64,000 bases of DNA from a bacterium (GCA_963643715.1 CAVILQ010000009.1:4520-68519), one strand, 5' to 3'; shown: positions 16,478 to 58,976, counted from the stretch's first letter. Program-made: numbers and translations. The notes: a model not told the origin generated them from the letters alone.

Positions 16478-16702
16478 ATCCGTCTCCTTTTTCAGTTAGT
16501 GAAAAAACTCACTATCACTATTGTAAAACACAAGGAAACCGCTTGCAATATTTTTTAAGTGTCAAAGTATTTTTATTTTTCCCATATAATACGGAAATAT
16601 TCTACATTTATTTATTTTTATGGAATCGCCGTTTTTCTATTTTCTTAACTTTATGAAAAATATCTTGAGCATTCCTATTTTGTGTTCTATAATGTAAGCG
16701 CT

Positions 16703-19203: not shown

Positions 19204-20118
19204 ATGCTGAAAATCGAAAACATGACTGCCATAAGACAGAACGAAAATAGCAAGCCGAAAAAGAGCATATCCTATCAGGCAACGAAATGGATTGTCTTCG
19301 CTATTTTTGCAATCTATGCTCTTTCTTTATGTATTCCTTTCTTCTGGATGCTGTTGAATTCGTTCAAAACCAATCAGGATTTCAATTCCGGAAATGTTTG
19401 GGGGTTCCCACGTCAGTTTGAAGGTCTGAACTTCATCGAAATCCTTCAGTACAAAGTGACAACAATCGGAGGAACGGAAGAGACAATATGGGAGATGTTC
19501 CTATGGTCTGTTTTGACTACGATTGTAGGAACGCTTGTCAGTGTCTTCTTTTCCGCCGTCGCTGCTTACGTATTGGCAAAATACAAATTTCCTGGAAGAG
19601 ATGTAATCTATGCTGTTGCGATATTCGCAATGGTTGTCCCCATCGTCGGAACCCTTCCAGCCCAAGTCAACATGATGGAATTCCTCCATCTCGATGACTC
19701 TTTCTTCGGCGTCATCTTCCTATATTCAGGATGCTTCGGATTCAACTTCATCATGCTCTATTCCGCCTTCAAATCAATCAGTTGGTCTTATGCTGAGGCA
19801 GCTAGCATGGATGGAGCAAATCGTTTTTCCATCTTCTTCCGTGTCATGCTTCCGATGGCAAAAGGACCTATCATCGCCTGTTCCATTCTTCAGGCCATAG
19901 CCTTATGGAACGATTACTCTACTCCCTATCTATTCATGCCTAGTCACTATACTCTTGCAGTCGGATTATATGAACTGCAGAGTGAATTCAGCGGAAGCGG
20001 AAACTATCCGATGATGTTCACTACCGTCATCATCGCACTAGTTCCGGTTCTTGTCCTTTATTCATGTTTCCAGAAGAAGATTATAGAAAATACAAATGCA
20101 GGAGGATTAAAAGGATGA
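19204..20118 (+). CDS. carbohydrate ABC transporter permease (MalG/UgpE-like)
   Basis: 6 TM segments and an EAA-like loop (EAASMDGAN); the stop overlaps the next ATG (ATGA). Confidence 0.75.
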   Translation: MLKIENMTAIRQNENSKPKKSISYQATKWIVFAIFAIYALSLCIPFFWMLLNSFKTNQDFNSGNVWGFPRQFEGLNFIEILQYKVTTIGGTEETIWEMFLWSVLTTIVGTLVSVFFSAVAAYVLAKYKFPGRDVIYAVAIFAMVVPIVGTLPAQVNMMEFLHLDDSFFGVIFLYSGCFGFNFIMLYSAFKSISWSYAEAASMDGANRFSIFFRVMLPMAKGPIIACSILQAIALWNDYSTPYLFMPSHYTLAVGLYELQSEFSGSGNYPMMFTTVIIALVPVLVLYSCFQKKIIENTNAGGLKG

Positions 20119-23100: not shown

Positions 23101-23204
23101 ATCATGCAACAAATTTAGCCGGTGTTGTTGGAAGAACATGGTCTTCAGATATTAAATATTGTACCTTTAACGGATATAATATCAATTTGATAGGTAATAA
23201 GTAA
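20115..23204 (+). CDS. large surface lipoprotein with GLUG-type beta-helical repeats
   Basis: Lipobox LAGC. Repeated F.G.F.GNG.TI...GLFG / GALVG motifs (FTGTFNGNGYTISGF, NGKFYGLGHTIKN) are characteristic of GLUG repeats; 1030 aa. Confidence 0.55.
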   Translation: MKKSLIFLASAGFLVLAGCGKTSDESNVNTGKSNTTEKKEDTISFEKDSYTINPKDKVTVKEAVSGVVYSFQGGAPEGVTLDSTTGEIDFDAYANPIPEKVYIATYNGKTATTIIKFNMQQEKPVLTFQNLSDYLVDGDIVYCTAKTDKGREYAVSYSLKENVDGISINAETGRVSFSDKVNHGTSFIVVAESQGVTSEKSFIVMKDNIIFSENDVILEKGSNEDALFTLNFNGNSDGEKETTQNDVKLIVDDVIVAVEGFTYDKESKTVTIPHSYLATLGSGEHNLKVTTKRNNVPLSLAIADKIIYDATDFITIFEADYSTETPTFKEGSLSGYYTLGCDIDLSDVIKANGDWAPIGAYSDGIHDVPFTGTFNGNGYTISGFSYNGMAPVNGLFGRNKGTIKNFRLNGEIKSAKSWSGALVGNNAGTIENIIMDVSLVNEGQNATGVLCSVNHGTIQNCLSINENVVGNIDPDLSWKQSGLLVGLNETDGSIKNSYAVGNGNLFGYSQNTEVTEESAGKVFDTIAEMKAYDFSNLPTHYFNVEENALPTLKTLSIPHTPGYFAFGTLPTYALKGDSVALSAVIKPFEREAEYKTYLSYSIEGENYGATIVDNSLSLANVAVPEEGATLTLKATLKIDQYGIDLSTTADILVYNSISGLKIANNETILQAGDTIELKTATTPESDIQATFNASTTPVWKGCYFTLSGNKLSIKDDCPDGLEITVTASAIGETAEKTFTVKKLNTLDNSNVIHYKDDVSSFSYTLSGVETIKNVAIDGASIENTKYTYSNNTLTLDSSLITKDDIQHVIKITDNNDNSYRAFATSTNEEKVTEEWLNNAFGATGYKKISSLSDFYTYFAVDGATHSELVSNMSQSNVYALTADLDFSGVDFHAIGENLGSSDGTIFNGKFYGLGHTIKNVSIQKDGSNWGDGFFRQIGGEGVKAVVQDINFENCTINKTGGDATGILAGYVGDSSQIRNINVFSSTVIAGDDQPFNHATNLAGVVGRTWSSDIKYCTFNGYNINLIGNK

Positions 23205-26049: not shown

Positions 26050-26386
26050 GTGTAAAAGAAATTGTTTAATTAACTTAGTGATGAAATAAAGCAATATTAA
26101 ATTATAAGAATTATAAGCAAAACATAGAATAAGTTGTGATAAAAACATCACTCTCCTAATACAACAACGCCGTAGAATGAAATGACAATCTAGTCGTTCA
26201 TAAATATGGTATCAAGTTTTGAAGGCTGTATTAAATCCTTCTCGCTATATGCGATTTTTCGTTTATGATTCATTAGGATAACCAATTCTTATCTTCTATA
26301 TATGTTCCAATGCTGAGAATCACAAAAACATTGGCTATATGATTCTTAATTTCGTTTACTTGTTTTTACTGATTTGATATAATTTA

Positions 26387-26470
<84 letters not shown>

Positions 26471-26483
26471 TTTTATTTTCAAA

Positions 26484-42522: not shown

Positions 42523-43521
42523 TTAGCTCCTTTGAGTATATCCGCATATCGAACATCTAAATGTTATTTTCTTTCCTTGTCTTATGATTTCCATAACATG
42601 CTTATGATAATACGGATAGGTATAAACATCATCACCACACGAACAATACGCAGTGGAATTGCTTGAATCAACATATAGATAATTATGTATATGTGATAAA
42701 AAGTTAACATATACAATGTACTGAATGCCTGGGGATTGCTCTGAACCATCATCATTGAATTCCATCAATGTCGGTGAACTTTTCCAACCATTATGAACTA
42801 ATAATTTCTTGGTATTTGGAACATATCCATAAACCACAAACGAATGCTTAGGAGTATTTGCAATCACTGGCTGACCAGACTGCAATAATGAAATGATGGT
42901 GTTATAAACAGAAGATATATTCAAGACAGACTTATCCTCAAATATTGTATAGTCGGTTTTCTCAACATATCCATAATCTGTTAGATATTGATTTATCAAA
43001 TTCGCCTGCTCTGAATAGCTTGTAAAAACAGTCGGCATATATTGAAGAACAGGATAGGTAAATGAGGATTTATACTTATTGACAAAATCACCATAGAACG
43101 AACCAGAAGCATACGAATCTAAAACACCTGGTGATTCGGCATAAGATGAAAAGTCGGTTCCCGTGCCAATAGAACGAACGATATACTCCTCTTTAATAGT
43201 CGGAGAATAGAAGGTATTCATATATGACAAATACATTGTCGCCGCTACCCAAGTACACTCACCAACACTATTAGTAGGATAATTCTCTTGTAAATTATAG
43301 AAAAAATAATAATTGTTGATGACATAGCCTTCATCAATTTGCTTCATCATAACAGGAACATCACTAGAACTAGCAGAATTCCGATTGATTTCATCATCCG
43401 ATGAAACATCAGATGTTATAGGCTCAGAATCATGTGGGCTATATTTAAGAGTCACAACACATGCTGGACAAAAATCAACAATCAGCGAAATCAAACTTAT
43501 CAACAGTAAATTAAATTTCAT
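42523..43521 (-). CDS. secreted papain-fold cysteine peptidase-like protein (Peptidase_C39-like / YvpB-type) with C-terminal Cys4 motif
   Basis: Signal peptide. GECTWVAATMYLSYM resembles the YvpB-type C39-like catalytic Cys block, with a His in HSFVVYGY. The C-terminus carries CSCG...CSICG. Confidence 0.4.
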   Translation of the reverse strand: MKFNLLLISLISLIVDFCPACVVTLKYSPHDSEPITSDVSSDDEINRNSASSSDVPVMMKQIDEGYVINNYYFFYNLQENYPTNSVGECTWVAATMYLSYMNTFYSPTIKEEYIVRSIGTGTDFSSYAESPGVLDSYASGSFYGDFVNKYKSSFTYPVLQYMPTVFTSYSEQANLINQYLTDYGYVEKTDYTIFEDKSVLNISSVYNTIISLLQSGQPVIANTPKHSFVVYGYVPNTKKLLVHNGWKSSPTLMEFNDDGSEQSPGIQYIVYVNFLSHIHNYLYVDSSNSTAYCSCGDDVYTYPYYHKHVMEIIRQGKKITFRCSICGYTQRS

Positions 43522-43857: not shown

Positions 43858-44862
43858 TTACTTAATGAGAGAATTCTTGCACTTTCCAGTGGCGAGATAT
43901 TCTTCCATGTTCTTGATTGAAACTTCGATCATATCGATCAAAGCCAAATCAGTGGCGGAACCGATATGCGGAGTGATGAGGACCTTAGGATAGAGGTCAA
44001 TGATTTCCTGATGGACAGGATCACCCATATTCTTCGGATCATGATCGATGTTGAACAATGTCTTTTCATGATCGATGACATCGAGTCCGAGACCATCGAG
44101 ATGTCCGTTCTTGACAGCATCCAAAGCAGCCTTGGTATCCATGACTTCACCACGGGCAACATTAACAAGGATAGCATGATCCTTCATCTTGGCGATCTTC
44201 TCAGCATCGATGAAGTTATCATTCTTGCCCTTGAAGTAAGCCATATGGCAGACGATGATATCTGCATCAGCAAGGAAGGAATCAATGTCTTCGAATTCAA
44301 CGATCTGCTTTGCATAATCAGACTGGAAGACATCATAACCGATGACTTTGGCACCTAAACCCTTGAAGAGGCTAGCTGTTGTGCATCCGATTCTTCCGCA
44401 GCCCATGATACCGACTGTGCAGCCACGGACTTCTCTGGAGAACATCTGATTGGTGACCTTGAAATGTCCCTGATGTGTCTGATCACAGGCATAAGCGGCA
44501 TTTCTAAGGAGCATCATGGCAAGAGTCAAAGCGAGTTCAGAGATGGCATTCGGAGAATAGCCAGGAACGAAGGCTGTCTCGATACCGAATTCCTTGCAGG
44601 CAGCGACATCGACATGATTGTAACCAGCGGTTCTGGTGAGATAGTACTTAAGGCCGTTGTCCTTGAGCATCTTCATATGATCTCTGTCAAGGATGCAGTT
44701 GCCACGGACCATGACAATTTCATAGCCTTTGGCAAGTTCCCATGTATCATTGCTGATGTAGACAGGGCTGAGAACTAATTCATATCCGTACTTTTCGCCT
44801 AATTTTTCGAAATAAGGCTTTTCATAATCACGGACACCGAAACAAATGATTTTCTTTTCCAT
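43858..44862 (-). CDS. ldhD: D-isomer-specific 2-hydroxyacid dehydrogenase (D-lactate dehydrogenase-like)
   Basis: NAD-binding GxGxxG (GIMGCGRIG) and a catalytic His region; 334 aa. Confidence 0.8.
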   Translation of the reverse strand: MEKKIICFGVRDYEKPYFEKLGEKYGYELVLSPVYISNDTWELAKGYEIVMVRGNCILDRDHMKMLKDNGLKYYLTRTAGYNHVDVAACKEFGIETAFVPGYSPNAISELALTLAMMLLRNAAYACDQTHQGHFKVTNQMFSREVRGCTVGIMGCGRIGCTTASLFKGLGAKVIGYDVFQSDYAKQIVEFEDIDSFLADADIIVCHMAYFKGKNDNFIDAEKIAKMKDHAILVNVARGEVMDTKAALDAVKNGHLDGLGLDVIDHEKTLFNIDHDPKNMGDPVHQEIIDLYPKVLITPHIGSATDLALIDMIEVSIKNMEEYLATGKCKNSLIK

Positions 44863-44885
44863 TGTAATTTACCTTTCTATCTTAA

Positions 44886-46097
44886 TTAGGCAGCGACATA
44901 GAAGAAGTTGAGTTCTTTAACAACAGTGAGAAGGATAACCCAGATGATGATACCAACAACAGCACCAAGAGTGGAAACCAAGGATATGTGAGAAGCCATT
45001 TCTTTTTCTTTGTCGAAGGAAATGCAATAACCGACAGCGACAGTGGCAGGCGGAACCATCCACGTGATGACAGCAGAGTTGACAGTATTCATAGAAATAA
45101 GCTGTGAAACATCAGAAGTAACACCATTAACAGTCTTTAAGATACCTGTTGCATTTGCGATACCCTGGATAGCGAAGAGAAGGACTAAGACGATGATAGG
45201 AGCGACGAAGACCTTAAGAGCGGTCCAGATCCAAGCATACTTATCAGCAATAGCTTCCTTGAAGTTTGTCTTTCCTAAAGTGCATCCGATAGCGATCAAG
45301 ATGACTGTGGAGGAAAGTCCACCTAATGTGTTAGCAGCCTGGTAGATCCAAGGCAATGTGACATCAATTCTCCAGAAAGCAACTTTCGTTTCAGAAACAT
45401 TAGTGCTGAGCCAATCAGTACGGACCATACCAGAGCCCGGGATAGCCTGTAAGAGCCAGAGGATAAGACCGGCGAAAGTAGCGATAACGATAGGATTGAG
45501 CAAAGCCTTCTTCAACATAGACTTGATATCAGTCTTAGGCTTTGCAGGAGCATCACCATTCAAGGAAATGTCTGCTTCAGCATCGGTATCGGTAAGGTTG
45601 GCGATAGCGACATAAGCATAAGAATATAAGAAGACACGATAGGCAACGTTCATGACGTTGAAGTTGTTACCAGCATCCTTGCCAAAGAGAGAAGAAATTA
45701 AAGGATAGGCGAAGAATGTGGTAGAACCGAAAGCGAACAAGACAGCAAGAACGACACGTTTCTTTTTGTCCTTAACCCAGATAAAGAGAAGCTTGCCGAC
45801 GAAGATGAAGAGAATGTAGAGAATGAAACCAAAGACGAAGTTGAAGAGAGCGTCGATGGCACCACTGACCGTGAAAGTTGACATAAAGGAGCAGAAGGCA
45901 AGGCAAGGAATACAGATTGCCATGACGAACTTGGTCAAAATCGTACCGGTGTTCTCAGGGATAAGTTTCTTTTTTGTAAAAATGAAACCTACAAGAATAA
46001 AGATGATAGTCTTTGCAATGTTGATCCAAAGATTGTTGGAAGACATTGCTTTTGCGATATTGGAACCAATATCACTTGCTAGTACAAAGTCAGACAT
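44886..46097 (-). CDS. AEC-family membrane transporter (malate permease / auxin-efflux-carrier type)
   Basis: 403 aa with about 10 TM helices in two halves; AEC-like N-terminus. Confidence 0.55.
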   Translation of the reverse strand: MSDFVLASDIGSNIAKAMSSNNLWINIAKTIIFILVGFIFTKKKLIPENTGTILTKFVMAICIPCLAFCSFMSTFTVSGAIDALFNFVFGFILYILFIFVGKLLFIWVKDKKKRVVLAVLFAFGSTTFFAYPLISSLFGKDAGNNFNVMNVAYRVFLYSYAYVAIANLTDTDAEADISLNGDAPAKPKTDIKSMLKKALLNPIVIATFAGLILWLLQAIPGSGMVRTDWLSTNVSETKVAFWRIDVTLPWIYQAANTLGGLSSTVILIAIGCTLGKTNFKEAIADKYAWIWTALKVFVAPIIVLVLLFAIQGIANATGILKTVNGVTSDVSQLISMNTVNSAVITWMVPPATVAVGYCISFDKEKEMASHISLVSTLGAVVGIIIWVILLTVVKELNFFYVAA

Positions 46098-46378
46098 TTA
46101 GTTAATACCTCCAATAAACTGACACGCATATTCTACTAAGTTTTTGCATTAAAACCATAGCAATTTGATAAAAAATTCGTGTAAGCGGTAGATTTTTCCA
46201 CATACGTGAAATAAAAATGATTGTTTCTTTATCAAACAATGCACATATTTTTGCTTTTAAGCAATAAATGTGCAAAAAGCAATGGATTAAAGTGATACTA
46301 CTTCAAAGCTGTCTTGATAAATCTTCTCACTAAAATAGTGAATTCATCTCTTTTTAATGTTGTCTTAAGAAACCAAAA

Positions 46379-46439
46379 TTGCCAACTTGCCAAACAAAAC
46401 ACTGCCAAATTGCCAAATAAATCATTGACAAATTGCCAA
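46379..46439. repeat. array of six TTGCCAA-like heptamers (TTGCCAA x4, CTGCCAA, TTGACAA) about 120 nt upstream of the RHS gene
   Basis: Read directly; copies are 8-15 bp apart. Confidence 0.8.
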
Positions 46440-46554
46440 ATGGAAAGTGTTATTCCTTCTTTTTTTCTGGCATACTTATGAAGAAGAAATAGGCATCAAA
46501 TCATTTTTACCCTTAAATAAAGCTTAAACTACTTTATATAATGTGATATGATAT

Positions 46555-49500
46555 ATGTGTAAAAAACGAAAGGACTTATGTCCTATGACAGCAAGCAAGG
46601 TATCAGCACAACGCATCAACTCACATCACTCATATATCGGAAGCAACCCGGAATGGTCGCTCCTTGACGGCTCCGTCCACTATTCTTATCCGATCTGCTC
46701 ATTCGGAGGAGGCCATTCCTTTTCATGTGAACTCATTTATGACTCGAACCTGCCTATCATCACCAGCGAAAAGTTCGGCGGCATGCCGTACTGCTTCATG
46801 CTGTCCTGCCACGCAAGGCTGATGCAATCGGAAGGCGGATATATCTTCGTCGATGAGGAAGGCATCCCCCATCTTTTCACAGGCTTCATCGATCAGGGAG
46901 ACACCTACTATCATGACAACGACGGGCTTGGCATGATCCTAGATGACCACAGCGACATCAGAATCGACAACGGATTCGGAACTATTCTTTACTTTGACGA
47001 CAGCATGAGACTGAGCAGGAAATGCTCTCCTGGCGTCTTTGAGATCTCCTACTCTTACGATAACATAGGAAGACTGACTTCAGTGTCGGACACGACAGGA
47101 AAGAAGCGAAAGTTTGTCTTCGAATACGACGGTGCCCTAGCCTTTGTCAAATCATATTATGAAAACAAAGTAGTTTCGATAACAAAGATAGGCTATTCAA
47201 CGAAACACGTTCTTAACATCGTAGCGAAGTGGCAGTTGCTTTCCCTTGACAGGATATCAACGGAGAACGGTTCGCAAGCAGAGCCTTTGCTCAGAATAAA
47301 GTATAAAGAGCAGGTCTTCAGCGAAGAGCCTCCCGCAGTCGAGTTCGATGACCTTTACAATCATTCAGCATTCCGGATAACATATGTAGGGGAAAAAGCC
47401 GCTAGACTGTCGTTCTCCGACATTGCCGCCGGCCTTTCGTTTAAAGAAAAGTCCTGTCTGGAAATGGCCGCTGACGAAGACATGGTCACCGTCAAGGACC
47501 AGGACGGCAAGCAAACATCATACATGCTAGACCAAAAAGGATACATCGTCTCATGTTTTAGAAAGGACGAATACGGGAATTTGCTCTCACTAGACAAGCC
47601 TATAGGAACCCGACTCGTCCTGACTAACGCTGAGACAGGAATAGATACGCTTCCGATCAGGACATGCGACAGAGGTCTCCCCGTCAAGATAACGGAATGC
47701 ATCCCACAGGGCAAAGACAAGGCCTCTCCTCTCTCAACGCTTCTCATCGACAAAGGCTGTTCTCTTTCCGTCTATGTCAGGCTGAAGGAGTCGCATCCTG
47801 GTGCCGTCCTTTCCGCCTCGGGATTCGTTTCGGCCGCGCTGAACCCCTATGCTGTCGGAACATGGCAAAAGGCACGGCTCGGGTTCAAGGACAGCAAGAC
47901 ACCGTCCGAACTGAAAATCAGTGTCACCAATGACCTGGGGGTCGCATTCAAAGCCGACATCTGTGAGCCGGTCATCGTGAATTCCGGCACCGAAAGACTG
48001 ATCCTCGGGGAAGCAGAACTCAATGAATTCAGCAGCCTGACAAAGAATTGTGAAAGAATCCGCGGCGTCGTCTCCAAGACAGACCTTCTGACCAGCATGA
48101 AGCATTTCGTGTTCTCTGACAGCATCACATATTTCCTGTGGATGAACAACGGACACGACGTCATCCAGATGGACAACGTTTCCTTCACCCTGAACGGCAG
48201 AGAGGTCCTTTTCACCGATTTCCTGAGGACGCAGGAACTGACGCTCGTGAAATATGACACGCAGAATGGATTCATGCGCGAAAGGAAACTCAAGAGAAAC
48301 GGAAACCATCAGATAACGGATGAAAAGACGATATCAGATGCCAACGGAAACGCCATCGAGCACGAGAAAAGAATGCGCGATGTCACAAATGAGGTGGTGC
48401 TCGACTCCTACGGTCTCCTTCACAGAAGCCAATATACTTCAGACGGACTGCCCTGGAGGCAGTACGACAGCAATGGCAAAGTCATCTCCGAGAATGAGTA
48501 TGACAGCGATGGGAATCTTACCTGCGCGAAGACCGATACCTCCACGCATCATTACACCTACAGCATGGGAACTCTGTCCTCAATCGCAAACGGCGGCGTG
48601 ACAAGAAGCATATACTATGACGGATTTGGAAGAACCGGCGGAGTTCGCTTTACAGACGGAAGCGAAAATCGGTTCGGCTATTTCGGGAGCCATCTGTCGT
48701 CAATCAGCGACAGTTCGATAGGAGTCGCCTTTATCACGGATTCCAGAAGGGATTATGAAGACTACTACATAAACAAGAGCCTCATAGAGCATGTGGAAAA
48801 CGGCAGTCAGACAAGGAAGAAGACATACCCTAACGGAACAGGAATCACGGAATGCTATGACAATGACGGGAATCTGATATCCGTGGTCGGCAACGGAACG
48901 GACACGGCCACAATCACAAGAAGCCCTGACACTTCCTTGCCTGTCACAGTCAAGGACGGATTCGCCGACATGACTACTGACATCGAATACAGAGGAGACA
49001 AAAGCGTCCGAAAGACTACGACGAGAAAAGGCGGAAAAGTCTATCTCACAAAGGAAGAGATACATAGCGAGTATGACACCGAATTTGTCATTGGACCTGA
49101 CTCCCTGCCATACAGAAAGGCTATAAGCAAACAAAATGCGCTCATCCGTATCATCTATGACAATGGCACTCACAAGGTCAAAGGGCTCGGAAGCGACACC
49201 TATCTCGATGCTTTGGCAAGACCGTCCAAGAAGCAAAGCGGACCGATAAGCTGCTCCTACCAGTATAAGAACGGTTCCTCTCTCCTTCATAAGCTTAGCT
49301 GTGACGCCTTCACCGAGGAGCTAGAGTACGAAAATGATTCCTTCCTCGTGTCGAAGGCAGTCTTTTCCGGATACATAAATGAAACCGATAGTTTCCGATA
49401 TGACTCATGCGGCAGACTACTTGAGGCAAGAAGAACAGGTAACGGCGATTACCGGCATATTTACAGCTACAAAGGCTCCAGGCTTGATGAAATCAAAGAT

Positions 49501-50769
49501 TACCTAAAGATAATACGCGGCAGCGACGGACTCATCAGCTCCGTTGAAGACTACCTTGGGAGAAGGCATATCGGAATCAGCTATGACAGTGCCGGAAACA
49601 TGACAAAACATGGAGACAAGGAACTCAGCTACCAGTACGGGCATAGGTTAAGCAGTGTGAAGGAAGGGCTTAACGAATCCAAATACCTATATTCCTATGA
49701 CGGGATACGCATCGAAAAGGACGTGAACGGGACCAAGACAACCTTCTACTATGACGGCAAGACTCTCTTAGGCGAGGATCGCGGCGATGAGATACGCATC
49801 CGCTATTTCCAAGACACGAACTCCTACACCGGATTCACACTCGAAGAGAAGGGGACTGACACGTTCTACCTATATCTAAAAGACTCGTTCGGAAACATAA
49901 TCGGCATCATCGACAGCCAGGGATATCTCGTAGGAAGATACATCTACGACGAAAAGGGAAGGCTTCTCGGAACGGTGCCAAACAGCAACATCAAGGATGC
50001 CGAGCACATCCTTGACATCAACCCTCTCAGGTACAGAGGCTACTACTATGACGAGGAAACCGGCTTCTATTACCTCCACGCAAGGTACTATGATCCGATT
50101 TCCATGTCTTTCCTTACCCCTGATGACAAGGAAAACATCGACGGATATTCCGTTTCGGGCGCTGATCCATACTGCTACTGCAACTATGATCCCGTCAACT
50201 ACTTCGATCCGTACGGGACCATCAATGTCCTTATAGCATTGATGCTGATCGGAGCCGCAGTCGGCGCACTCAGCTACACGGCATCGTCACTCATTTCCTA
50301 CGCCGTGACTAGAAAATGGTCCTGGTCTTGGTGCCAGTTTATCGTATCAACATTTTTTGGTGCTCTAGAAGGTGCATTGACCTTTGCTCACATACCACCC
50401 GTTTGGAGTTATTTAATTTTTAGTTCTTTACCAACAGGTATTGGTATGTGTTTACAAAATATCTTTGAGGGGACAGATTACACAACCAACCAAATCTTAA
50501 TTTCGTCAGCTTTTAGTTATTTTTTATCAGCTTTTCTCTCACGAATTCCACAGTTCTTAATCAAAGGACTTAATTATGGAAGAAACAGTTTTTCAGAAAT
50601 TGCTAGTTCAATAACAACAAAATATGCGAACAATGTAATCAAAAACATGTCAATGAAGACCATGGGAAAAATATTCATTTCCAATCTTTATGACTCCACA
50701 TATGGGATACTTTCCGATGCCTTTTTTAGTATCCTCGACGACGATGAAAAGGAGGAAGCATTTGCATAA
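46555..50769 (+). CDS. RHS/YD-repeat polymorphic toxin with hydrophobic multi-helix C-terminal domain
   Basis: Many YD repeats (YDSNGKVISENEYDSDGN, YYDGFGRT, YSYDGIR...). The RHS core ends at ARYYDPISMSFLTPD...DPVNYFDPYG, followed by about 180 aa containing four hydrophobic helices. The body is high-GC and GC drops at about 50335. No signal peptide. An alternative start exists at 46585. Confidence 0.85.
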   Translation: MCKKRKDLCPMTASKVSAQRINSHHSYIGSNPEWSLLDGSVHYSYPICSFGGGHSFSCELIYDSNLPIITSEKFGGMPYCFMLSCHARLMQSEGGYIFVDEEGIPHLFTGFIDQGDTYYHDNDGLGMILDDHSDIRIDNGFGTILYFDDSMRLSRKCSPGVFEISYSYDNIGRLTSVSDTTGKKRKFVFEYDGALAFVKSYYENKVVSITKIGYSTKHVLNIVAKWQLLSLDRISTENGSQAEPLLRIKYKEQVFSEEPPAVEFDDLYNHSAFRITYVGEKAARLSFSDIAAGLSFKEKSCLEMAADEDMVTVKDQDGKQTSYMLDQKGYIVSCFRKDEYGNLLSLDKPIGTRLVLTNAETGIDTLPIRTCDRGLPVKITECIPQGKDKASPLSTLLIDKGCSLSVYVRLKESHPGAVLSASGFVSAALNPYAVGTWQKARLGFKDSKTPSELKISVTNDLGVAFKADICEPVIVNSGTERLILGEAELNEFSSLTKNCERIRGVVSKTDLLTSMKHFVFSDSITYFLWMNNGHDVIQMDNVSFTLNGREVLFTDFLRTQELTLVKYDTQNGFMRERKLKRNGNHQITDEKTISDANGNAIEHEKRMRDVTNEVVLDSYGLLHRSQYTSDGLPWRQYDSNGKVISENEYDSDGNLTCAKTDTSTHHYTYSMGTLSSIANGGVTRSIYYDGFGRTGGVRFTDGSENRFGYFGSHLSSISDSSIGVAFITDSRRDYEDYYINKSLIEHVENGSQTRKKTYPNGTGITECYDNDGNLISVVGNGTDTATITRSPDTSLPVTVKDGFADMTTDIEYRGDKSVRKTTTRKGGKVYLTKEEIHSEYDTEFVIGPDSLPYRKAISKQNALIRIIYDNGTHKVKGLGSDTYLDALARPSKKQSGPISCSYQYKNGSSLLHKLSCDAFTEELEYENDSFLVSKAVFSGYINETDSFRYDSCGRLLEARRTGNGDYRHIYSYKGSRLDEIKDYLKIIRGSDGLISSVEDYLGRRHIGISYDSAGNMTKHGDKELSYQYGHRLSSVKEGLNESKYLYSYDGIRIEKDVNGTKTTFYYDGKTLLGEDRGDEIRIRYFQDTNSYTGFTLEEKGTDTFYLYLKDSFGNIIGIIDSQGYLVGRYIYDEKGRLLGTVPNSNIKDAEHILDINPLRYRGYYYDEETGFYYLHARYYDPISMSFLTPDDKENIDGYSVSGADPYCYCNYDPVNYFDPYGTINVLIALMLIGAAVGALSYTASSLISYAVTRKWSWSWCQFIVSTFFGALEGALTFAHIPPVWSYLIFSSLPTGIGMCLQNIFEGTDYTTNQILISSAFSYFLSAFLSRIPQFLIKGLNYGRNSFSEIASSITTKYANNVIKNMSMKTMGKIFISNLYDSTYGILSDAFFSILDDDEKEEAFA

Positions 50770-51323
50770 TGAAAAAGAAAATATATTTTCAAGACAGCAT
50801 CCCATATCACATTTTATTTTCTATCCCTTTAATAATTGGCATAGCAACAATCACGTTTGCAGTTGTAGAATTGATACATTCTCCTTCTACGAACTTATAT
50901 TTGAATATTTTTTTGATATTTGCTGGATTGTATTGTTTTTACGTCTTTTTAGACACAGAGTCTTTTATCATCCACATGGATGATAAAAAGGTTTGGATGA
51001 TAGGAGAACCTGTCATTGAACCTTTACGAACTCAGTACAAAGCTGAAGTCCTGTTTTCTGACATCATTAACATTTATATTGTCAGGTCTCACACAAACAG
51101 CAAAGGAAAAAAATATGAAAACAGAAACAGAAAAGTAAGACTTGGAATTAGAGCCTATTTGGTGTTTACAAAGAAGAATGGTCACAAGGTCAGAATGTTG
51201 GTCAGTTATCACACAAGGGAACATCTATTAGAAATCATCAGTGAAATCATCGTTCGAATCAATGCTACAGGTAACATATACGAAGGAAATGACCCTCTTT
51301 GGATTGTCAATCACATCAAATGA
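50769..51323 (+). CDS. candidate immunity protein (two-TM, 184 aa) translationally coupled to the RHS toxin
   Basis: Its ATG overlaps the RHS stop (TAATG). Two N-terminal TM helices. It is a paralogue of the next ORF, sharing the C-terminal IIRRINATGN.YEG..PLWI block. Confidence 0.65.
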   Translation: MKKKIYFQDSIPYHILFSIPLIIGIATITFAVVELIHSPSTNLYLNIFLIFAGLYCFYVFLDTESFIIHMDDKKVWMIGEPVIEPLRTQYKAEVLFSDIINIYIVRSHTNSKGKKYENRNRKVRLGIRAYLVFTKKNGHKVRMLVSYHTREHLLEIISEIIVRINATGNIYEGNDPLWIVNHIK

Positions 51324-51413
51324 AGAACTGCAATCTTTTTATAGCCATATAAGTTTGGCCTTATCAATATTATCGTTATAAACCATTTGAATTCAGTAAA
51401 GGAGAAACTGGTA

Positions 51414-52004
51414 ATGAAAAAGAAAACATATTTACAAAACGATATATCGTATTATATAGCAATGTTTTTAATGTTTGTGCTTGCACTTACATCTGTCGGT
51501 TTAGGAATTTATCCTCTTATAAAATTGTTTACATCAGAATCTGACACTCGAGACGCTTTAAATATCATCCTTTTGATAATTTTCTTAATTATTTTTCTCG
51601 CATTAGCAGCGTATGTAGTTTTTATTACGATTGGTGAAATGAGCATCATCATATATATGGATGATGAAAAAATATGGATGAACGATGACCTAAAGTTAAA
51701 AAGGCTGCGATTACAGTATAAAACTGAAGCATACTTCTCGGAAATTAAAGATATCCGTTTAATCAAGAACAAAAAGGATAGCAAATCACATAGTTTTCCA
51801 AAAGACAGCATCTATCCCGGAAAACAAAAATATCTTGTCCTTACAATGAAAGACGATCATGTCGAAAGACTGAATGTCACATATTTCAGAAAAGGAACAA
51901 TCGGAAAAATCATCTGTGAAATCATTCGAAGAATCAATGCTACAGGTAACACATACGAAGGAAAATACCCTCTTTGGATTTTCAATAACATCACCTTAGA
52001 ATAA
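51414..52004 (+). CDS. paralogue of the preceding protein (second candidate/orphan immunity protein)
   Basis: Same architecture with strong C-terminal identity and a diverged N-terminal TM region. Start taken at MKKKTYLQ, which has an AAAGGAG ribosome-binding site. Confidence 0.6.
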   Translation: MKKKTYLQNDISYYIAMFLMFVLALTSVGLGIYPLIKLFTSESDTRDALNIILLIIFLIIFLALAAYVVFITIGEMSIIIYMDDEKIWMNDDLKLKRLRLQYKTEAYFSEIKDIRLIKNKKDSKSHSFPKDSIYPGKQKYLVLTMKDDHVERLNVTYFRKGTIGKIICEIIRRINATGNTYEGKYPLWIFNNITLE

Positions 52005-52030: not shown

Positions 52031-52065
52031 AAAGGCAAGCCGTATGATTGACTTGCCTTTTTTTG
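52031..52065. terminator. bidirectional intrinsic terminator (aaggcaag-...-cttgcctt-TTTTTT)
   Basis: Hairpin plus a T-run between the convergent 51414-52004 and 52073-53362 genes. Confidence 0.6.
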
Positions 52066-57110: not shown

Positions 57111-58976
57111 TTGAAAAAAGAGACACAAAGTATGGAATCCAAGGAAATTCTTTACAAACCAAAAGAACTTTATGAAAGGCTGTTGAAGCAACAATATCAC
57201 CAAGCGGCTGAAGAATACTTCGATAAGCTGGTTAAAGACACGAAAACTGATGTCGCCATCAATTCTCAGCATGTTAAGGAATATAACGAACTGCTATCCA
57301 AACAAAAGGTAGCAGAAAACAGTGTAAATCAATCTAGTGGATTAAAGGCATTCCTTATCGTTTTGGTTGCATTCAGTTTCCTTGGCGCCTTCATCTTTTT
57401 ACTTGTTGCTTTATCCGATATTACAAGATCTTGGTGGGCATTATTCATAATGGCAGCACTAATATGCCTAGCCATCTTTTTACTTGTCTACACACATAAA
57501 AACATTGATAAAGCCATCACACAAAAGCAGGCATTCGCAGATAAAATAAAACAATCAACAGACTCAAAACTGAATGAATGTTATAAGGATATGCAGGCAT
57601 TGAACAACGCATTCGACTGGTCACTTCCCAACAAAATTATGCAAAAGGTGACTAATATCATCGAATTGGATCCGTATTTTTCTAGAAAACGTCTGAATTA
57701 TCTCGTTGAGAAATTCGGTTTTGATGAAGATGGTGACGATAACGAATCAACTCTGGGCATTCTCTCAGGCAGCATTCAAGGAAACCCATTTGTCCTAAAA
57801 AAGACACTTACTGAGAAATACGGATATCAGAGATATGTCGGCAGTCTTACAATCACATGGGAAACCTATTCCACCAATTCAAAGGGTGAGCTTGTCACGA
57901 ATTATCATTCTCAAGTTTTGACAGCAAGTGTTGTCCATCGTGCTCCGTTCTATTCTACAAGCACTGTTCTTATCTATGGAAACGAAGCTGCTCCTCATCT
58001 TACTTTCACACATTCCCCATCCAAGATCAATCAGCTCAACGCAAAAGAAAGAGAAAGAGAAGTCAAACACAGAATGAAGGAAATCAACAAGTCTGCAGAT
58101 AAAGCAATCCAGAATGGTACCTCATTCGTTCCAACTGGAAATGATGAATTCGATGTTTTCTTCGGTGGATTAGATAGAAACAACGAAGTAGAGTTTCGTC
58201 TATTATTTACACCACTTGCTGAAAAGAATATGTTGGAACTTATCTCTGATCCGATGCCCTTCGGCGATGATTTCCATATGATAAAGCAACACATGGTCAA
58301 CTGCATCGTTTCAAAGCACTCGCAGTCATTCGACTATTCTGCTTCTCCTGGTCAATATACATCATATGACTTAACAGTATCCAAGAGCGCCTTTGTAAGT
58401 TATTGTGATGACTTTATTAAAAATCTCTTCTTCGACTTAGCCCCACTATTATCCATTCCACTCTATCAGATGCATAAACCAAAAGAATACATCTATGAAA
58501 AAGAGCCTTCCTCAAACTACTCTTACTGTGAACATGAAACAATTGCAAATTCAATGAATCCAAGTCTATTCATGCCCTATAATGCCGATCCTTCCTTACC
58601 GGTTATGATCAAATCAAAATCGGCATCTATGTGTGGAAATGTAGACCGTGTTCACATACATTCCTACTCCTATCAGACAACACCAAGGGTCGATTATATC
58701 TCAGTATACGGAAGAGATGGTTTCTGGCACAGGGTTCCAGTTCCCTGGATACAGTATGACAGAGTCGACGATGACCAATCATTCGATTTAGCTTATACTG
58801 GCGCTAATAAACAAGAAGTCAATTCTAAACTTAGCGAAGATAATTCATTTACGCATCTTATGTCTACCGCCAAAGGTGCATTCTTAGGAAGAGGGATGGT
58901 GTCCTTATTAGAAGATGGACTATCACAAAATGACATCGACAAAATACTGAAAGATACATTTCAAGAAAAAAACTGA
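57111..58976 (+). CDS. hypothetical two-TM membrane protein (paralogue of 60456-61574; DUF3137-like, LemA-associated)
   Basis: Cytoplasmic N-terminus, two adjacent TM helices and a large C-terminal domain that shows similarity blocks with the 60456 protein. An alternative start exists at 57132. Confidence 0.5.
   Translation: MKKETQSMESKEILYKPKELYERLLKQQYHQAAEEYFDKLVKDTKTDVAINSQHVKEYNELLSKQKVAENSVNQSSGLKAFLIVLVAFSFLGAFIFLLVALSDITRSWWALFIMAALICLAIFLLVYTHKNIDKAITQKQAFADKIKQSTDSKLNECYKDMQALNNAFDWSLPNKIMQKVTNIIELDPYFSRKRLNYLVEKFGFDEDGDDNESTLGILSGSIQGNPFVLKKTLTEKYGYQRYVGSLTITWETYSTNSKGELVTNYHSQVLTASVVHRAPFYSTSTVLIYGNEAAPHLTFTHSPSKINQLNAKEREREVKHRMKEINKSADKAIQNGTSFVPTGNDEFDVFFGGLDRNNEVEFRLLFTPLAEKNMLELISDPMPFGDDFHMIKQHMVNCIVSKHSQSFDYSASPGQYTSYDLTVSKSAFVSYCDDFIKNLFFDLAPLLSIPLYQMHKPKEYIYEKEPSSNYSYCEHETIANSMNPSLFMPYNADPSLPVMIKSKSASMCGNVDRVHIHSYSYQTTPRVDYISVYGRDGFWHRVPVPWIQYDRVDDDQSFDLAYTGANKQEVNSKLSEDNSFTHLMSTAKGAFLGRGMVSLLEDGLSQNDIDKILKDTFQEKN

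What the first reader, a model, noticed from the sequence alone, without database searches (positions are those of the whole stretch)
46555..52004. Horizontally acquired RHS polymorphic-toxin cassette with two tandem candidate immunity genes
A 1404-aa YD-repeat (RHS) protein sits in a block whose GC is far above its neighbours, so it looks foreign. It ends with the RHS core terminus (RYYDP...DPVNYFDPYG) followed by a variable C-terminal domain. Directly downstream is a translationally coupled small two-TM ORF (TAATG) and then a diverged paralogue of it. This is the classic toxin / cognate immunity / orphan immunity arrangement. The C-terminal domain and the small proteins match no family I recognise, so they may be a new toxin-immunity pair.
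Basis: partly seen in the sequence, partly recalled or inferred. Interest (0 to 1): 0.85.

Follow-up and report, generated by a model that had tools for sequence, protein, structure and literature searches.

The report
RHS membrane toxin with paired immunity
This is a genuine bacterial "RHS" weapon gene whose detachable tail looks like a membrane-puncturing toxin. It is always followed by a small membrane protein that most likely protects the producer, and neither the tail nor the protector belongs to any catalogued family.

Summary
A 1394/1404-aa YD-repeat protein (46555/46585-50769) carries a scoring Rhs-associated core. It ends in a 183-aa hydrophobic, glycine-zipper-rich tail. A 2-TM gene overlaps it at TAATG, and a 34%-identical paralogue follows.

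The tail (CT) and the small protein (Imm) match nothing in Pfam or NCBIfam. They are nevertheless not one-offs. A CT-only HMM finds at least 77 near-full homologues among the 150 best 50%-identity cluster representatives. In 24 of 24 independent loci the CT is followed directly by an Imm homologue or its remnant. CT and Imm distances co-vary (r=0.85, Mantel p≤2e-4).

Within the species group, a block running from CT TM3-TM4 to the end of imm1 has been swapped by recombination (76-85% nucleotide identity against about 96% in the flanks, with dS raised as well). Two related MAGs have deleted the RHS gene but kept the immunity genes.

Best reading: an RHS-encapsulated, self-cleaved, membrane-inserting (pore-forming or depolarising) toxin. 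It is neutralised inside the membrane by a 2-TM plus PH-like immunity protein. imm2 is a conserved orphan paralogue.

"Horizontally acquired" is only partly supported. Shell GC3 is an outlier, but the locus is syntenic across the clade and has no mobility genes. The delivery route is unknown. A weak, position-matched similarity to the TM helices of mosquito SGS1/SGS4 remains unresolved.

The parts
46380..46439 (+). Array of five TGCCAA motifs in the AT-rich 5' region upstream of the RHS gene. This is a possible regulatory site, and its membership in the system is uncertain.
   Evidence: Read and counted. There are 5 copies in L009, 2 in L003 and 0 in L010. Direct repeat D8.
46585..50769 (+). 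RHS/YD-repeat polymorphic toxin gene. The likely start is 46585 (1394 aa). The first in-frame ATG at 46555 would give 1404 aa.
   Evidence: ORF. Orthologue starts. PF05593, TIGR01643 and TIGR03696. The nearest solved relatives are RHS cocoons.
46585..50013 (+). Lineage-specific N-terminal region plus the YD-repeat shell. It is GC-rich (GC3 0.61) and has no signal peptide, no TM segment and no PAAR, LXG or DUF6531 domain.
   Evidence: the only 19-residue window in the RHS protein with mean hydropathy of 1.6 or more is at the CT. The N-terminal search found only one fragment.
50014..50217 (+). Rhs-associated core (aspartyl autoprotease plug), ending in DPVNYFDPYG. Cleavage is predicted one residue after the G, i.e. 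...DPYGT|INVL, at about 50220/50221.
   Evidence: TIGR03696 at residues 1154-1221. In the alignment to SGS1, the window's LTPDD and FDPYG aspartates align with D2708 and D2729, and the cleavage position with 2733/2734 (PMC9935623).
50218..50766 (+). C-terminal domain (CT, 183 aa), the predicted membrane-inserting toxin. The clearest hydrophobic helices are at about 50218-50274, 50332-50388 and 50494-50550. A weaker one lies at about 50395-50460. An amphipathic Lys-rich tail follows from about 50575.
   Evidence: Hydropathy. All-helical model, low confidence. Family alignment A5 with the motifs LIGAxVGA, EWxWSW, GSxIGGAxGG, QNxFEG and GRNSxxAIxK..TK..K. No Pfam or NCBIfam family.
50401..51300 (+). 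Hyper-divergent, recombinationally exchanged module running from CT TM3-TM4 through imm1. It is the presumed specificity determinant.
   Evidence: 76-85% nucleotide identity to L003 against about 96% in the flanks. Lowest amino-acid identities in CT TM3-4 and the imm1 TM helices in three comparisons. dS 0.65-0.71 against 0.07-0.16.
50769..51323 (+). imm1, the cognate immunity candidate (184 aa). It has 2 TM helices (50811-50867, 50895-50951) plus a PH-like beta-sandwich with a C-terminal helix. It is translationally coupled to the RHS gene (TAATG).
51414..52004 (+). imm2, a paralogous immunity-like gene (196 aa, own AGGAG RBS). It is conserved in second position across the clade and is a candidate orphan or second immunity gene.
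   Evidence: 34% identity to imm1, E=6e-34. Orthologues in L003, L009 and L010.
51232..51318 (+). First copy of the 87-nt repeat at the 3' ends of imm1 and imm2. The second copy is at 51907-51993, 87% identical. It is the substrate for the imm1/imm2 fusion seen in a related MAG.
   Evidence: Repeat D1. Chimeric protein P0011 and locus L031.
52032..52064 (+). Terminator-like hairpin (8-bp stem AAGGCAAG/CTTGCCTT, 12-nt loop, T-run) that closes the RHS-imm1-imm2 operon opposite a convergent gene.
   Evidence: Read directly from the sequence. The scan did not list it because the loop exceeds 8 nt.
46859..50755 (+). Segment deleted in RHS-minus relatives (GCA_963624285.1 and GCA_963630245.1). The deletion leaves a stub of about 100 codons joined to the last codons of the CT. 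The right breakpoint is about 50751-50759.
   Evidence: blastn and junction sequences.

Best explanation
This is a chromosomal three-gene polymorphic-toxin operon (RHS toxin, imm1, imm2) of an uncultured low-GC gut bacterium.

Proposed mechanism, with each step marked as shown or inferred:
- The YD-repeat shell forms a closed cocoon (inferred from homology to solved RHS cocoons).
- Its Rhs-associated aspartyl-protease core cuts just after DPYG(T) (inferred from conserved motifs).
- The 182/183-aa C-terminal domain then lies free but enclosed in the shell (inferred).
- That domain is an uncatalogued, all-helical module of four hydrophobic or amphipathic helices, rich in glycine-zipper motifs, followed by a Lys-rich amphipathic tail. 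It has no conserved catalytic-type residues (shown).
- On delivery to a competitor it most likely inserts into the cytoplasmic membrane and forms a pore or ion leak that dissipates the membrane potential. This is analogous to Tse5-CT, the CDI ionophores and the LXG glycine-zipper toxins (inferred).
- imm1 is a 2-TM protein with a cytoplasmic PH-like domain (TM helices and fold are predictions; cytoplasmic location is assumed). It protects the producer by binding the toxin within the membrane (inferred).
- The contact is most likely between toxin TM3-TM4 and the immunity TM helices, because these are the segments that vary together (co-variation shown, interface inferred).
- New toxin-immunity specificities arise by recombination that swaps the distal CT plus imm1 as a unit. 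The conserved TM1-TM2 region serves as the left-hand homology arm (replacement shown by dS, arm inferred).
- imm2 is a conserved paralogue that probably protects against another allele (inferred).
- Some strains have lost the toxin and kept immunity (shown).
For: RHS identity and the intact core.

CT properties: hydrophobic helices only at the C-terminus; GxxxGxxxG in 31 of 34 family members. The invariant or near-invariant columns are Gly, Trp, Ser, Ile and Lys, with no conserved His, Asp, Cys or Arg set. There is no enzyme family hit.

Family size: at least 77 near-full CT homologues, nearly all at the C-terminal end of RHS proteins or RHS-end fragments.

Linkage: 24 of 24 loci have an Imm homologue or remnant downstream of the CT — within about 105 nt in the 23 intact pairs, and starting 65 nt past the CT ORF's stop for the L025 remnant. 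These include orphan CT-imm modules without a shell (L001, L020, L028).

Co-variation: r=0.85, Mantel p≤2e-4, n=22.

Joint hypervariability of CT TM3-4 and the imm1 TM helices: 64/41/40% and 65/27/49% identity, against a shell at 95/55/77%. dS is raised as well, indicating module replacement.

RHS-minus haplotypes retaining the immunity genes occur in two MAGs.

Imm architecture of 2 TM helices plus a PH-like fold.

Precedents: Tse5 is an Rhs that encapsulates a pore-forming CT (PMC9637101, PMC10684867). CDI ionophores have glycine zippers and cognate-specific, highly polymorphic CdiI immunity proteins, with toxin variation concentrated at predicted CdiI contact positions (PMC11630599).
Against: No toxicity, depolarisation or protection data exist.

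The CT structure prediction is unusable (pLDDT 47), so the fold and oligomeric pore are unproven.

The window's own CT has a degenerate zipper (SxxxGxxxG with a Glu in TM2), and its helices 2-4 are only moderately hydrophobic.

No secretion or delivery determinant was found. There is no signal peptide, LXG/WXG, PAAR or DUF6531 domain, and no T6SS or T7SS genes among the window ORFs scanned.

The conserved polar motifs (QNxFEG, GRNS) leave room for a specific target or ligand rather than a generic pore.

CT-Imm co-variation can partly reflect shared ancestry of linked genes.
Confidence: 0.62

Rival explanations
1. The CT is a membrane-embedded enzyme toxin. Examples would be a Lipocone/VanZ-like or other lipid- or lipid-II-head-group-modifying domain. 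It would not be a pore-former, and the Imm would block its active site at the membrane.
For: The four-helix membrane module has recurrent polar motifs (QNxFEG after TM3, GRNS and conserved Lys residues in the tail). [quoted passage not shown]
Against: None of the 34 diverse members hits VanZ or any other enzyme family in Pfam or NCBIfam at E≤0.1. No His, Asp, Arg or Cys is conserved across the family: QN and E are not invariant, and the invariant positions are three Gly and one Lys. Glycine zippers are typical of pore-formers (PMC11630599).
Confidence: 0.13
2. The hydrophobic C-terminus is not a toxin. It is a membrane anchor or insertion device that tethers or docks the RHS cocoon, as discussed for the mosquito SGS1 TM helices. 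The small 2-TM proteins would then be assembly or partner subunits or chaperones.
For: The similarity to SGS1 and SGS4 extends past the cleavage site into TM1-TM2, and SGS proteins are not known to be toxins (PMC9935623). No secretion signal was found, so the protein's topology is unknown.
Against: An intact autoprotease motif would sever an anchor from the shell. The CT and downstream gene are exchanged as an allelic module with high dS. They also occur as shell-less orphan modules (L001, L020, L028). Strains that lost the RHS keep the small genes. A structural anchor would not be expected to be hypervariable together with its partner.
Confidence: 0.1
3. The cassette is a decaying or silent relic with no current function. 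Its composition would simply reflect an old transfer, and the small ORFs would be conserved for an unrelated membrane role.
For: Two related MAGs have deleted the RHS gene, and one has fused or frameshifted immunity genes. No delivery system is visible in the 64 kb.
Against: The 4.2-kb ORF is intact in at least six independent assemblies and in lineages only 55-60% identical in the N-terminal region and shell. Shell dN/dS is 0.21, indicating purifying selection. Translational coupling and the terminator are preserved.
Confidence: 0.05

Closest known systems
Tse5 / Tsi5 of Pseudomonas aeruginosa (T6SS Rhs effector with an encapsulated pore-forming CT)
   Same: Both have an Rhs cocoon and an aspartyl-protease core that releases a C-terminal fragment of 16-20 kDa. 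In both, that fragment is hydrophobic and acts, or is predicted to act, on the cytoplasmic membrane, and an immunity gene lies directly downstream (PMC9637101, PMC10684867). The core end aligns with 8cp6_B.
   Different: No sequence similarity was detected between the CTs: CT-only searches of all PDB chains returned nothing. There is no PAAR, VgrG or T6SS context, and the host is a low-GC, Mollicutes- or Bacillota-like gut bacterium. The immunity protein here has 2 TM helices plus a PH-like domain.
CDI ionophore toxins (CdiA-CT EC93 class) and their CdiI proteins
   Same: Both are alpha-helical membrane toxins with a glycine-zipper motif. In both, within-family variation is concentrated at predicted toxin-immunity contacts, and the immunity proteins are only about 30% identical within a group (PMC11630599). 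The CDI immunity proteins are experimentally cognate-specific, which remains to be tested here. Zhang et al. 2012 describe Imm-CdiI as a two-TM immunity protein (PMC3482391).
   Different: The delivery scaffold differs (a CdiA filament in Gram-negatives against an RHS cocoon here). No homology was detected. No entry or receptor-binding domain is recognisable in this CT.
T7SS LXG glycine-zipper membrane toxins (TelE, EsxX, TspA) of Bacillota
   Same: Both are membrane-depolarising, glycine-zipper C-terminal toxins from monoderm bacteria with dedicated immunity proteins (abstracts listed).
   Different: There is no LXG or WXG domain, no Lap partners and no T7SS genes here. The toxin is carried by an RHS shell.
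Mosquito SGS1 / SGS4 (Tc-toxin-like Rhs shell with C-terminal 'daisy-chained' TM helices, PDB 8fjp and 9on3)
   Same: These are the best-scoring solved relatives of the core end plus CT: 57.9 and 35.4 bits, against 21.4 or less for every other RHS structure. In both, the same autoprotease site is followed immediately by a TM helix, a K-W-x-W motif and a Gly-rich second helix, and the hydrophobic helices are stored inside the shell (PMC9935623).
   Different: CT-only searches do not reach database significance. hhalign gives 60% probability. SGS proteins are 3,300-aa eukaryotic proteins with six predicted TM helices and a Tox-SGS domain, with no immunity partner.
Bacterial PH-like (bPH) membrane proteins and the STM3941 / MAG1140 NCBIfam families
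   Same: The architecture is the same: an N-terminal TM hairpin followed by a PH-like beta-sandwich capped by a helix. imm2 gives weak sub-threshold hits to MAG1140_fam (E=4.6e-4) and STM3941_fam (E=3.2e-3).
   Different: All hits are below the curated cutoffs. No Pfam bPH family is matched. I know of no immunity role described for those families (own knowledge, not searched exhaustively).

Membership tests
RHS / YD-repeat polymorphic toxin | YD/RHS repeats forming the shell | tested here: met
   PF05593 E=1e-10 (42.2 bits against a 22 cutoff) and TIGR01643 at 33 bits against 15.8. Homology to solved RHS cocoons.
RHS / YD-repeat polymorphic toxin | Rhs-associated core ending in a DPxG motif, with the catalytic Asp residues of the autoprotease | tested here: met
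   TIGR03696 at 56.6 bits against a 32.5 cutoff, residues 1154-1221. The aspartates of LTPDD and FDPYG align with SGS1 D2708 and D2729 (PMC9935623). Actual cleavage was not testable.
RHS / YD-repeat polymorphic toxin | Variable C-terminal domain that differs between strains on a conserved shell | tested here: met
   Against L003 the shell is 95% identical while CT TM3-4 is 64%. P0029 is a further mosaic allele.
RHS / YD-repeat polymorphic toxin | Cognate immunity gene immediately downstream that co-varies with the CT | tested here: met
   24 of 24 loci. Mantel r=0.85. The protective function itself is not testable with these tools.
RHS / YD-repeat polymorphic toxin | Recognisable delivery determinant (Sec signal, PAAR/VgrG, LXG/WXG, TcA/TcB partner) | tested here: not met
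   No such domain is found in the protein or in five long family members. Most members lack a signal peptide. No T6SS, T7SS or Tc genes occur among the window ORFs scanned.
Tse5-type pore-forming Rhs CT | Sequence homology to Tse5-CT | tested here: not met
   The CT-only profile and the CT-only phmmer search against all PDB chains gave no hit at E≤10 to any RHS, Tse5 or other toxin chain. Only the core end aligns.
Tse5-type pore-forming Rhs CT | Hydrophobic, glycine-zipper-bearing helices able to insert in membranes | tested here: met
   Three clear hydrophobic helices plus a weaker fourth. GxxxGxxxG in 31 of 34 members.
Tse5-type pore-forming Rhs CT | Pore formation or membrane depolarisation | not testable with these tools
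   Requires bilayer electrophysiology or membrane-potential dyes.
Lipocone / VanZ-like membrane enzyme toxins | Four-helix core with conserved polar catalytic residues; profile similarity to VanZ, Wnt or PAP2-like families | tested here: not met
   No VanZ or related Pfam or NCBIfam hit in 34 members. No conserved His, Arg or Asp constellation. Structure-based comparison was impossible because of the poor CT model.
SGS1/SGS4 C-terminal TM moiety | Homology of the helices that follow the autoprotease site | tested here: inconclusive
   The alignment runs into TM1-TM2. SGS fragments score 12.0 and 14.9 bits on the CT-only HMM, with 0 of 2000 shuffles as high. hhalign gives 60% probability. There is no hit in CT-only database searches.
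Two-TM immunity families of Zhang et al. 2012 (Imm17, Imm-CdiI) | Two TM helices only, with the family sequence signature (for example WxW and R for Imm17) | tested here: not met
   Imm has two TM helices but adds a PH-like domain of about 120 aa. No Pfam family was matched by any of 9 members at E≤1 beyond weak DUF hits.
PH-like fold (bacterial PH superfamily) for the Imm soluble domain | Seven-stranded beta-sandwich capped by a C-terminal helix | tested here: inconclusive

The most novel reading that the evidence does not exclude
The helices that follow the autoprotease site of mosquito salivary SGS1 and SGS4 have no known function. They may descend from this bacterial family of RHS-encapsulated membrane toxins.

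If so, the bacterial family, which comes with a dedicated membrane immunity protein and shows toxin-like population genetics, would be the first functional model for the SGS 'daisy-chained' TM helices. The model would be insertion into, and permeabilisation of, a target membrane. It would also revise the earlier view that the bacterial toxin tip was simply replaced in SGS proteins.

Independently of that link, the CT and Imm would define a new, fairly large family of pore-forming toxins. Its 2-TM plus PH-like immunity protein would recognise the toxin inside the bilayer, in wall-poor or monoderm gut bacteria that show no known delivery system.
Probability: 0.3. Interest if true: 0.75.

Novelty: new variant of a known kind. 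Interest (0 to 1): 0.5.

Why it matters
RHS toxins are a major currency of bacterial warfare, but almost all characterised tips are soluble enzymes from Gram-negative T6SS systems. Tse5 is the one studied pore-forming RHS tip.

This locus exposes a sizeable uncatalogued family of membrane-targeting RHS tips in gut metagenomes. The family has a new kind of immunity protein (a TM hairpin plus a PH-like domain). A natural experiment is also visible in the population: allelic module swaps, shell-less orphan modules, and toxin-minus, immunity-plus strains.

The locus offers a tractable pair for studying intramembrane toxin-immunity recognition, with TM3-TM4 facing the immunity TM helices. It raises the question of how an RHS cocoon of about 160 kDa with no known secretion signal is delivered in such bacteria. 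Finally, it gives a testable lead on the function of the enigmatic TM helices of the mosquito SGS proteins that aid pathogen transmission.

Tried and rejected
(1) The CT structure prediction, made from a 3-sequence alignment, gave pLDDT 47. It is unusable, so no fold search of the CT was attempted.

(3) The deep HMM search profile (A3) unintentionally kept about 90 positions of RHS core end from P0003. The count of 34,643 hits therefore mostly reflects RHS ends. I re-scored the 150 listed proteins with a CT-only HMM to count true CT homologues. The full family size beyond the top 150 is unknown.

(4) The word-indexed homologue searches were very insensitive here. They returned 4 CT hits, 6 Imm hits and 1 N-terminal hit, and they missed the window's own orthologues.

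(5) The search for related loci with the diverse alignment A5 failed because it had no conserved stretch. A closer 7-sequence alignment (A6) worked.

(6) The genome-contig scan used only an N-terminal Imm pattern and returned 3 loci. Their MAG labels (Oscillospiraceae, Alistipes onderdonkii, Clostridiales) are mutually inconsistent for syntenic loci, so I do not trust them. The organism was not resolved. The NCBIfam hits MAG1210_fam (E=7.5e-164) and Mplas_Cys_pep point to Mollicutes-like affinities.

(7) Assembly chimera was rejected.

(8) A recent mobile-element insertion was rejected. There are no integrase genes or flanking repeats, and synteny is conserved.

(9) In-situ positive selection as the cause of the hyper-divergent block was rejected in favour of recombinational replacement, because dS is raised 4- to 10-fold as well.

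(10) A search for a cognate CT for imm2 found none. The nearest first-position Imm is only 43% identical.

(11) Rfam found nothing in or near the cassette.


Full report
**1. The observation**

The window contains the ORF 46555..50769 (+), 1404 aa. Orthologous genes in other assemblies are called from the second Met (46585; 1394 aa).

The protein carries RHS/YD repeats: PF05593 at E=1e-10 and TIGR01643. It also has an Rhs-associated core at residues 1154-1221, where TIGR03696 scores 56.6 bits against a cutoff of 32.5. The core ends in ...RYYDP...DPVNYFDPYG. Its closest solved relatives are RHS cocoons.

The RHS stop overlaps the ATG of a 184-aa ORF at TAATG, 50767-50771. A second ORF follows. 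Its real start is the ATG at 51414 behind an AGGAG (196 aa), and it is 34% identical to the first (E=6e-34). A hairpin with a T-run at 52032-52064 closes the unit.

GC is 0.48-0.50 across 47-50 kb against about 0.39 elsewhere. Shell GC3 is 0.607 against 0.416±0.065 for 27 other genes in the window. The C-terminal domain (GC3 0.37), imm1 (0.36) and imm2 (0.33) are AT-rich, and the break falls inside the C-terminal domain. The cassette is therefore compositionally composite, like classical rhs elements (own knowledge).

**2. Not a chimera, and not a recent insertion**

An independent Logan assembly (L030) is 100% identical to window 44769-51359. Four further assemblies (L002, L003, L006, L007) carry the same RHS-imm1-imm2 unit at about 94% nucleotide identity, between the same neighbours. 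Those neighbours are a 2-hydroxyacid dehydrogenase and a Mem_trans permease on the left, and a 417-aa protein and a GntR regulator on the right.

Two more diverged loci repeat the architecture. L010 has N-terminal-region and shell identities of 55-60% and the same flanking genes on both sides. L009 has 77-78%, but its contig starts 348 nt upstream of the RHS gene and a different gene lies to its right. No integrase, transposase or flanking repeats are present.

The compositional signal is thus compatible with an old transfer of the shell. The locus is nevertheless ancestral to this clade.

**3. The C-terminal domain (CT)**

Residues 1222-1404 (window 50218-50766) contain the only strongly hydrophobic segments of the whole protein. 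An amphipathic Lys-rich tail follows them. The AlphaFold model is all-helical but unreliable (pLDDT 47). Pfam and NCBIfam give nothing for this CT.

A word-indexed search found only four relatives. An exhaustive HMM search of 1.84 billion cluster representatives found many more. I re-scored the 150 listed hits with a CT-only HMM containing no RHS core. At least 77 carry a near-full CT, almost always at the extreme C-terminus of RHS proteins of 1200-2180 aa or of RHS-end fragments.

A 34-sequence CT-only alignment (A5) shows the family signature in order:
- TM1: LIGAxVGA
- a short linker with EWxWSW
- a Gly-zipper TM2: GSxIGGAxGG
- TM3 ending in GMxLQNxFEG
- TM4
- GRNSxxAIxK...TKLxNGxI...SxKTxGK

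GxxxGxxxG occurs in 31 of 34 members. The invariant and near-invariant columns are Gly, Trp, Ser, Ile and Lys. There is no conserved His, Asp, Arg or Cys set that would suggest catalysis. None of the 34 members hits a Pfam or NCBIfam family beyond scattered weak transporter or Gly-zipper matches.

**4. The small proteins (Imm)**

The AlphaFold model of imm1 (pLDDT 69) has two TM helices (11-37 and 43-63). A beta-sandwich capped by a C-terminal helix follows.

No Pfam family is matched. imm2 gives sub-threshold hits to the NCBIfam MAG1140 and STM3941 families. I treat the fold as 'PH-like, moderately supported'.

**5. Linkage and co-variation**

In every locus where DNA downstream of a CT homologue is available, an Imm homologue follows on the same strand, within about 105 nt in every intact pair. 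The loci are:
- the window, L003, L009 and L010
- the distant L001, an orphan RHS end plus CT plus Imm in an unrelated neighbourhood
- L011, a Clostridiales MAG whose Imm has an extra C-terminal domain
- 17 of 18 metagenome loci, L012-L029

The one exception, L025, retains a truncated Imm N-terminus. L020 and L028 show arrays of shell-less CT/Imm modules.

Across 22 pairs, CT and Imm pairwise distances correlate with r=0.85 (Mantel p≤2e-4). Shared ancestry of linked genes contributes to this figure.

**6. Population genetics at the locus**

Between the window and L003, nucleotide identity is about 96% through the shell and through CT TM1-TM2. It falls to 76-85% from 50401 to 51300, and returns to 93-99% from imm2 onward.

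In three independent comparisons the least conserved segments are CT TM3-TM4 (64/41/40% amino-acid identity) and the imm1 TM hairpin (65/27/49%). The shell is at 95/55/77%.

In the divergent block dS is raised as well as dN: 0.65-0.71 against 0.07-0.16, with dN/dS 0.3-0.5. The block was therefore replaced by recombination with a diverged allele. This is the classical C-terminal displacement of polymorphic toxins. The strongly conserved TM1-TM2 region probably served as the homology arm. P0029 is a third mosaic allele on the same shell.

Two MAGs (GCA_963624285.1 and GCA_963630245.1) share a deletion of window 46859 to about 50755. It removes the RHS gene but keeps imm1. One of them has a frameshifted imm2. 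The other has an imm1/imm2 fusion made through the 87-nt repeat at the 3' ends of the two genes.

The shell itself is under purifying selection (dN/dS 0.21).

**7. Mechanism**

What is shown:
- RHS shell and core motifs
- a hydrophobic, Gly-zipper CT family
- strict CT-Imm adjacency
- joint hypervariability and module exchange
- toxin-minus, immunity-plus haplotypes

What is inferred:
- The core cuts after DPYG(T). This rests on alignment with the SGS1 site 2733/2734 and its catalytic D2708 and D2729 (PMC9935623).
- The CT is stored inside the cocoon. After delivery it inserts into the target's cytoplasmic membrane and forms a pore or ion leak.
- imm1 neutralises it by intramembrane binding between toxin TM3-TM4 and the immunity TM hairpin.

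There are three precedents:
- Tse5, an Rhs that delivers an encapsulated pore-forming CT (PMC9637101, PMC10684867).
- The CDI ionophores, which have Gly zippers and highly polymorphic, cognate-specific CdiI proteins, with variation at predicted contact positions (PMC11630599).
- LXG Gly-zipper toxins such as TelE and EsxX.

An enzymatic membrane toxin of the Lipocone/VanZ kind (PMC12419801) is the main rival. It lacks support from profile hits or conserved catalytic residues.

How the protein leaves the producer and reaches a target is unknown. There is no signal peptide, PAAR, LXG/WXG or DUF6531 domain. No T6SS, T7SS or Tc genes occur among the window ORFs scanned. Most long family members also lack signal peptides. 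RHS proteins have been linked genetically to several T7SS variants in Bacillota (PMC11217815), but nothing in this window tests that.

**8. imm2**

imm2 is conserved in second position in all four syntenic lineages (90/70/55% identity). The closest first-position Imm is only 43% identical. No CT remnant lies in the 90-nt spacer.

Its TM half shows dN/dS of 3.6 against L003, but on very few substitutions. An orphan or second immunity role is the most economical reading, but it is unproven.

**9. The SGS1/SGS4 lead**

The best solved match of the core end plus CT is mosquito SGS1 (8fjp_A, E about 1e-15), followed by SGS4 (9on3_A). Using only 64 core residues plus the CT, they score 57.9 and 35.4 bits. 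Every other RHS structure scores 21.4 bits or less.

The alignments continue past the cleavage site through TM1, a K-W-x-W motif and the Gly-rich TM2.

CT-only searches of the PDB find nothing. hhalign of the family profile against the SGS1 fragment gives 60% probability. The SGS1 and SGS4 fragments score 12.0 and 14.9 bits on the CT-only HMM. None of 2000 shuffles, and none of 80 natural TM 64-mers (maximum 5.4 bits), reaches those scores.

This is suggestive positional homology, not proof. The SGS1 authors report no sequence similarity of this moiety to the corresponding regions of Tc toxins and teneurins, and its function is unknown (PMC9935623). Zhang et al. 2012 considered the bacterial toxin tip to have been displaced in SGS proteins (PMC3482391).

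**10. Verdict**

This is a real and well-formed RHS polymorphic-toxin operon. The kind of system is known. The toxin tip and the immunity protein belong to families absent from Pfam and NCBIfam. Zhang et al. 2012 list no such toxin or immunity domain in the passages I read.

The 2-TM plus PH-like immunity architecture and the apparent intramembrane specificity interface are unusual. The host lineage looks Mollicutes- or Bacillota-like: MAG1210_fam at E=7.5e-164 and Mplas_Cys_pep. No delivery system can be named.

I rate it a new variant of a known kind, of moderate interest. The upside is the SGS connection, or a novel delivery route, if either is borne out.

Noticed in passing
window 46380-46439: Five TGCCAA motifs lie within 60 nt of the AT-rich region upstream of the RHS start. 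The orthologous upstream region has 5 copies in L009, 2 in L003 and none in L010. This could be a regulator binding array or simply a low-complexity repeat.
   Followed up: partly
L008 4380-4430 and L031 3250-3285 (window 46859 to about 50755 missing): Two MAGs from the same species group share an almost identical deletion junction that removes the RHS gene. The junction joins a stub of about 100 codons to the last codons of the CT. The immunity genes are retained.
   Followed up: yes
L031 3279-3839; window repeats 51232-51318 and 51907-51993: In GCA_963630245.1, imm1 and imm2 are fused into one 186-aa chimeric gene (P0011). The fusion arose by recombination across the 87-nt repeat at their 3' ends. 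In GCA_963624285.1, imm2 is split into 91-aa and 108-aa ORFs.
   Followed up: yes
window 51414-51668 (imm2 TM half): dN/dS is 3.6 against the L003 orthologue (dN 0.068, dS 0.019 over 85 codons), while the PH-like half has dN/dS of 0.10. This may reflect positive selection on the TM hairpin of the 'orphan' immunity gene, but it rests on few substitutions.
   Followed up: partly
window 57111-58976, 42523-43521 and 51414-52004: There is a strong NCBIfam hit to MAG1210_fam (E=7.5e-164) and hits to Mplas_Cys_pep and MAG1140_fam, all families named after Mycoplasma loci. The syntenic MAGs, by contrast, are labelled Oscillospiraceae and Alistipes onderdonkii. The taxonomic labels of those bins look unreliable, and the organism may be a Mollicutes-like gut bacterium using genetic code 11.
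   Followed up: partly
L020 (1934-5123) and L028 (71-4034): These metagenome loci carry arrays of shell-less modules. L020 has Imm, CT, Imm and a CT fragment; L028 has two CT ORFs and an Imm. They resemble the orphan toxin/immunity clusters seen downstream of rhs and cdi genes.
   Followed up: partly
L011 2677-3534: The Imm homologue of a distant Clostridiales MAG is 285 aa. It carries an extra C-terminal domain of about 100 aa of unknown nature after the PH-like domain.
   Followed up: no
L010 2393-3682: One syntenic relative has an extra 429-aa ATPase-like gene (P-loop sequence GPKWCGKST) inserted between the permease and the RHS gene. It is absent from the window.
   Followed up: no
window 20064-23204 and 16682-18199: Large ORFs of 1046 and 505 aa, located inside a sugar-utilisation gene cluster, have no Pfam or NCBIfam match at E≤1e-5.
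   Followed up: no
window 26383-26480: Bacterial small SRP RNA (RF00169, 57.6 bits). It is the only Rfam match in the window.
   Followed up: no
P0034, P0046, P0095, P0097, P0114, P0143 (N-termini): Several long RHS proteins carrying the same CT family share a distinctive N-terminal module with the recurring motif '...N(I/V)(S/T)(D/E)EL(Q/N/I)(D/N)'. It has no signal peptide and no Pfam match, and could be a shared trafficking or adhesion domain.
   Followed up: no
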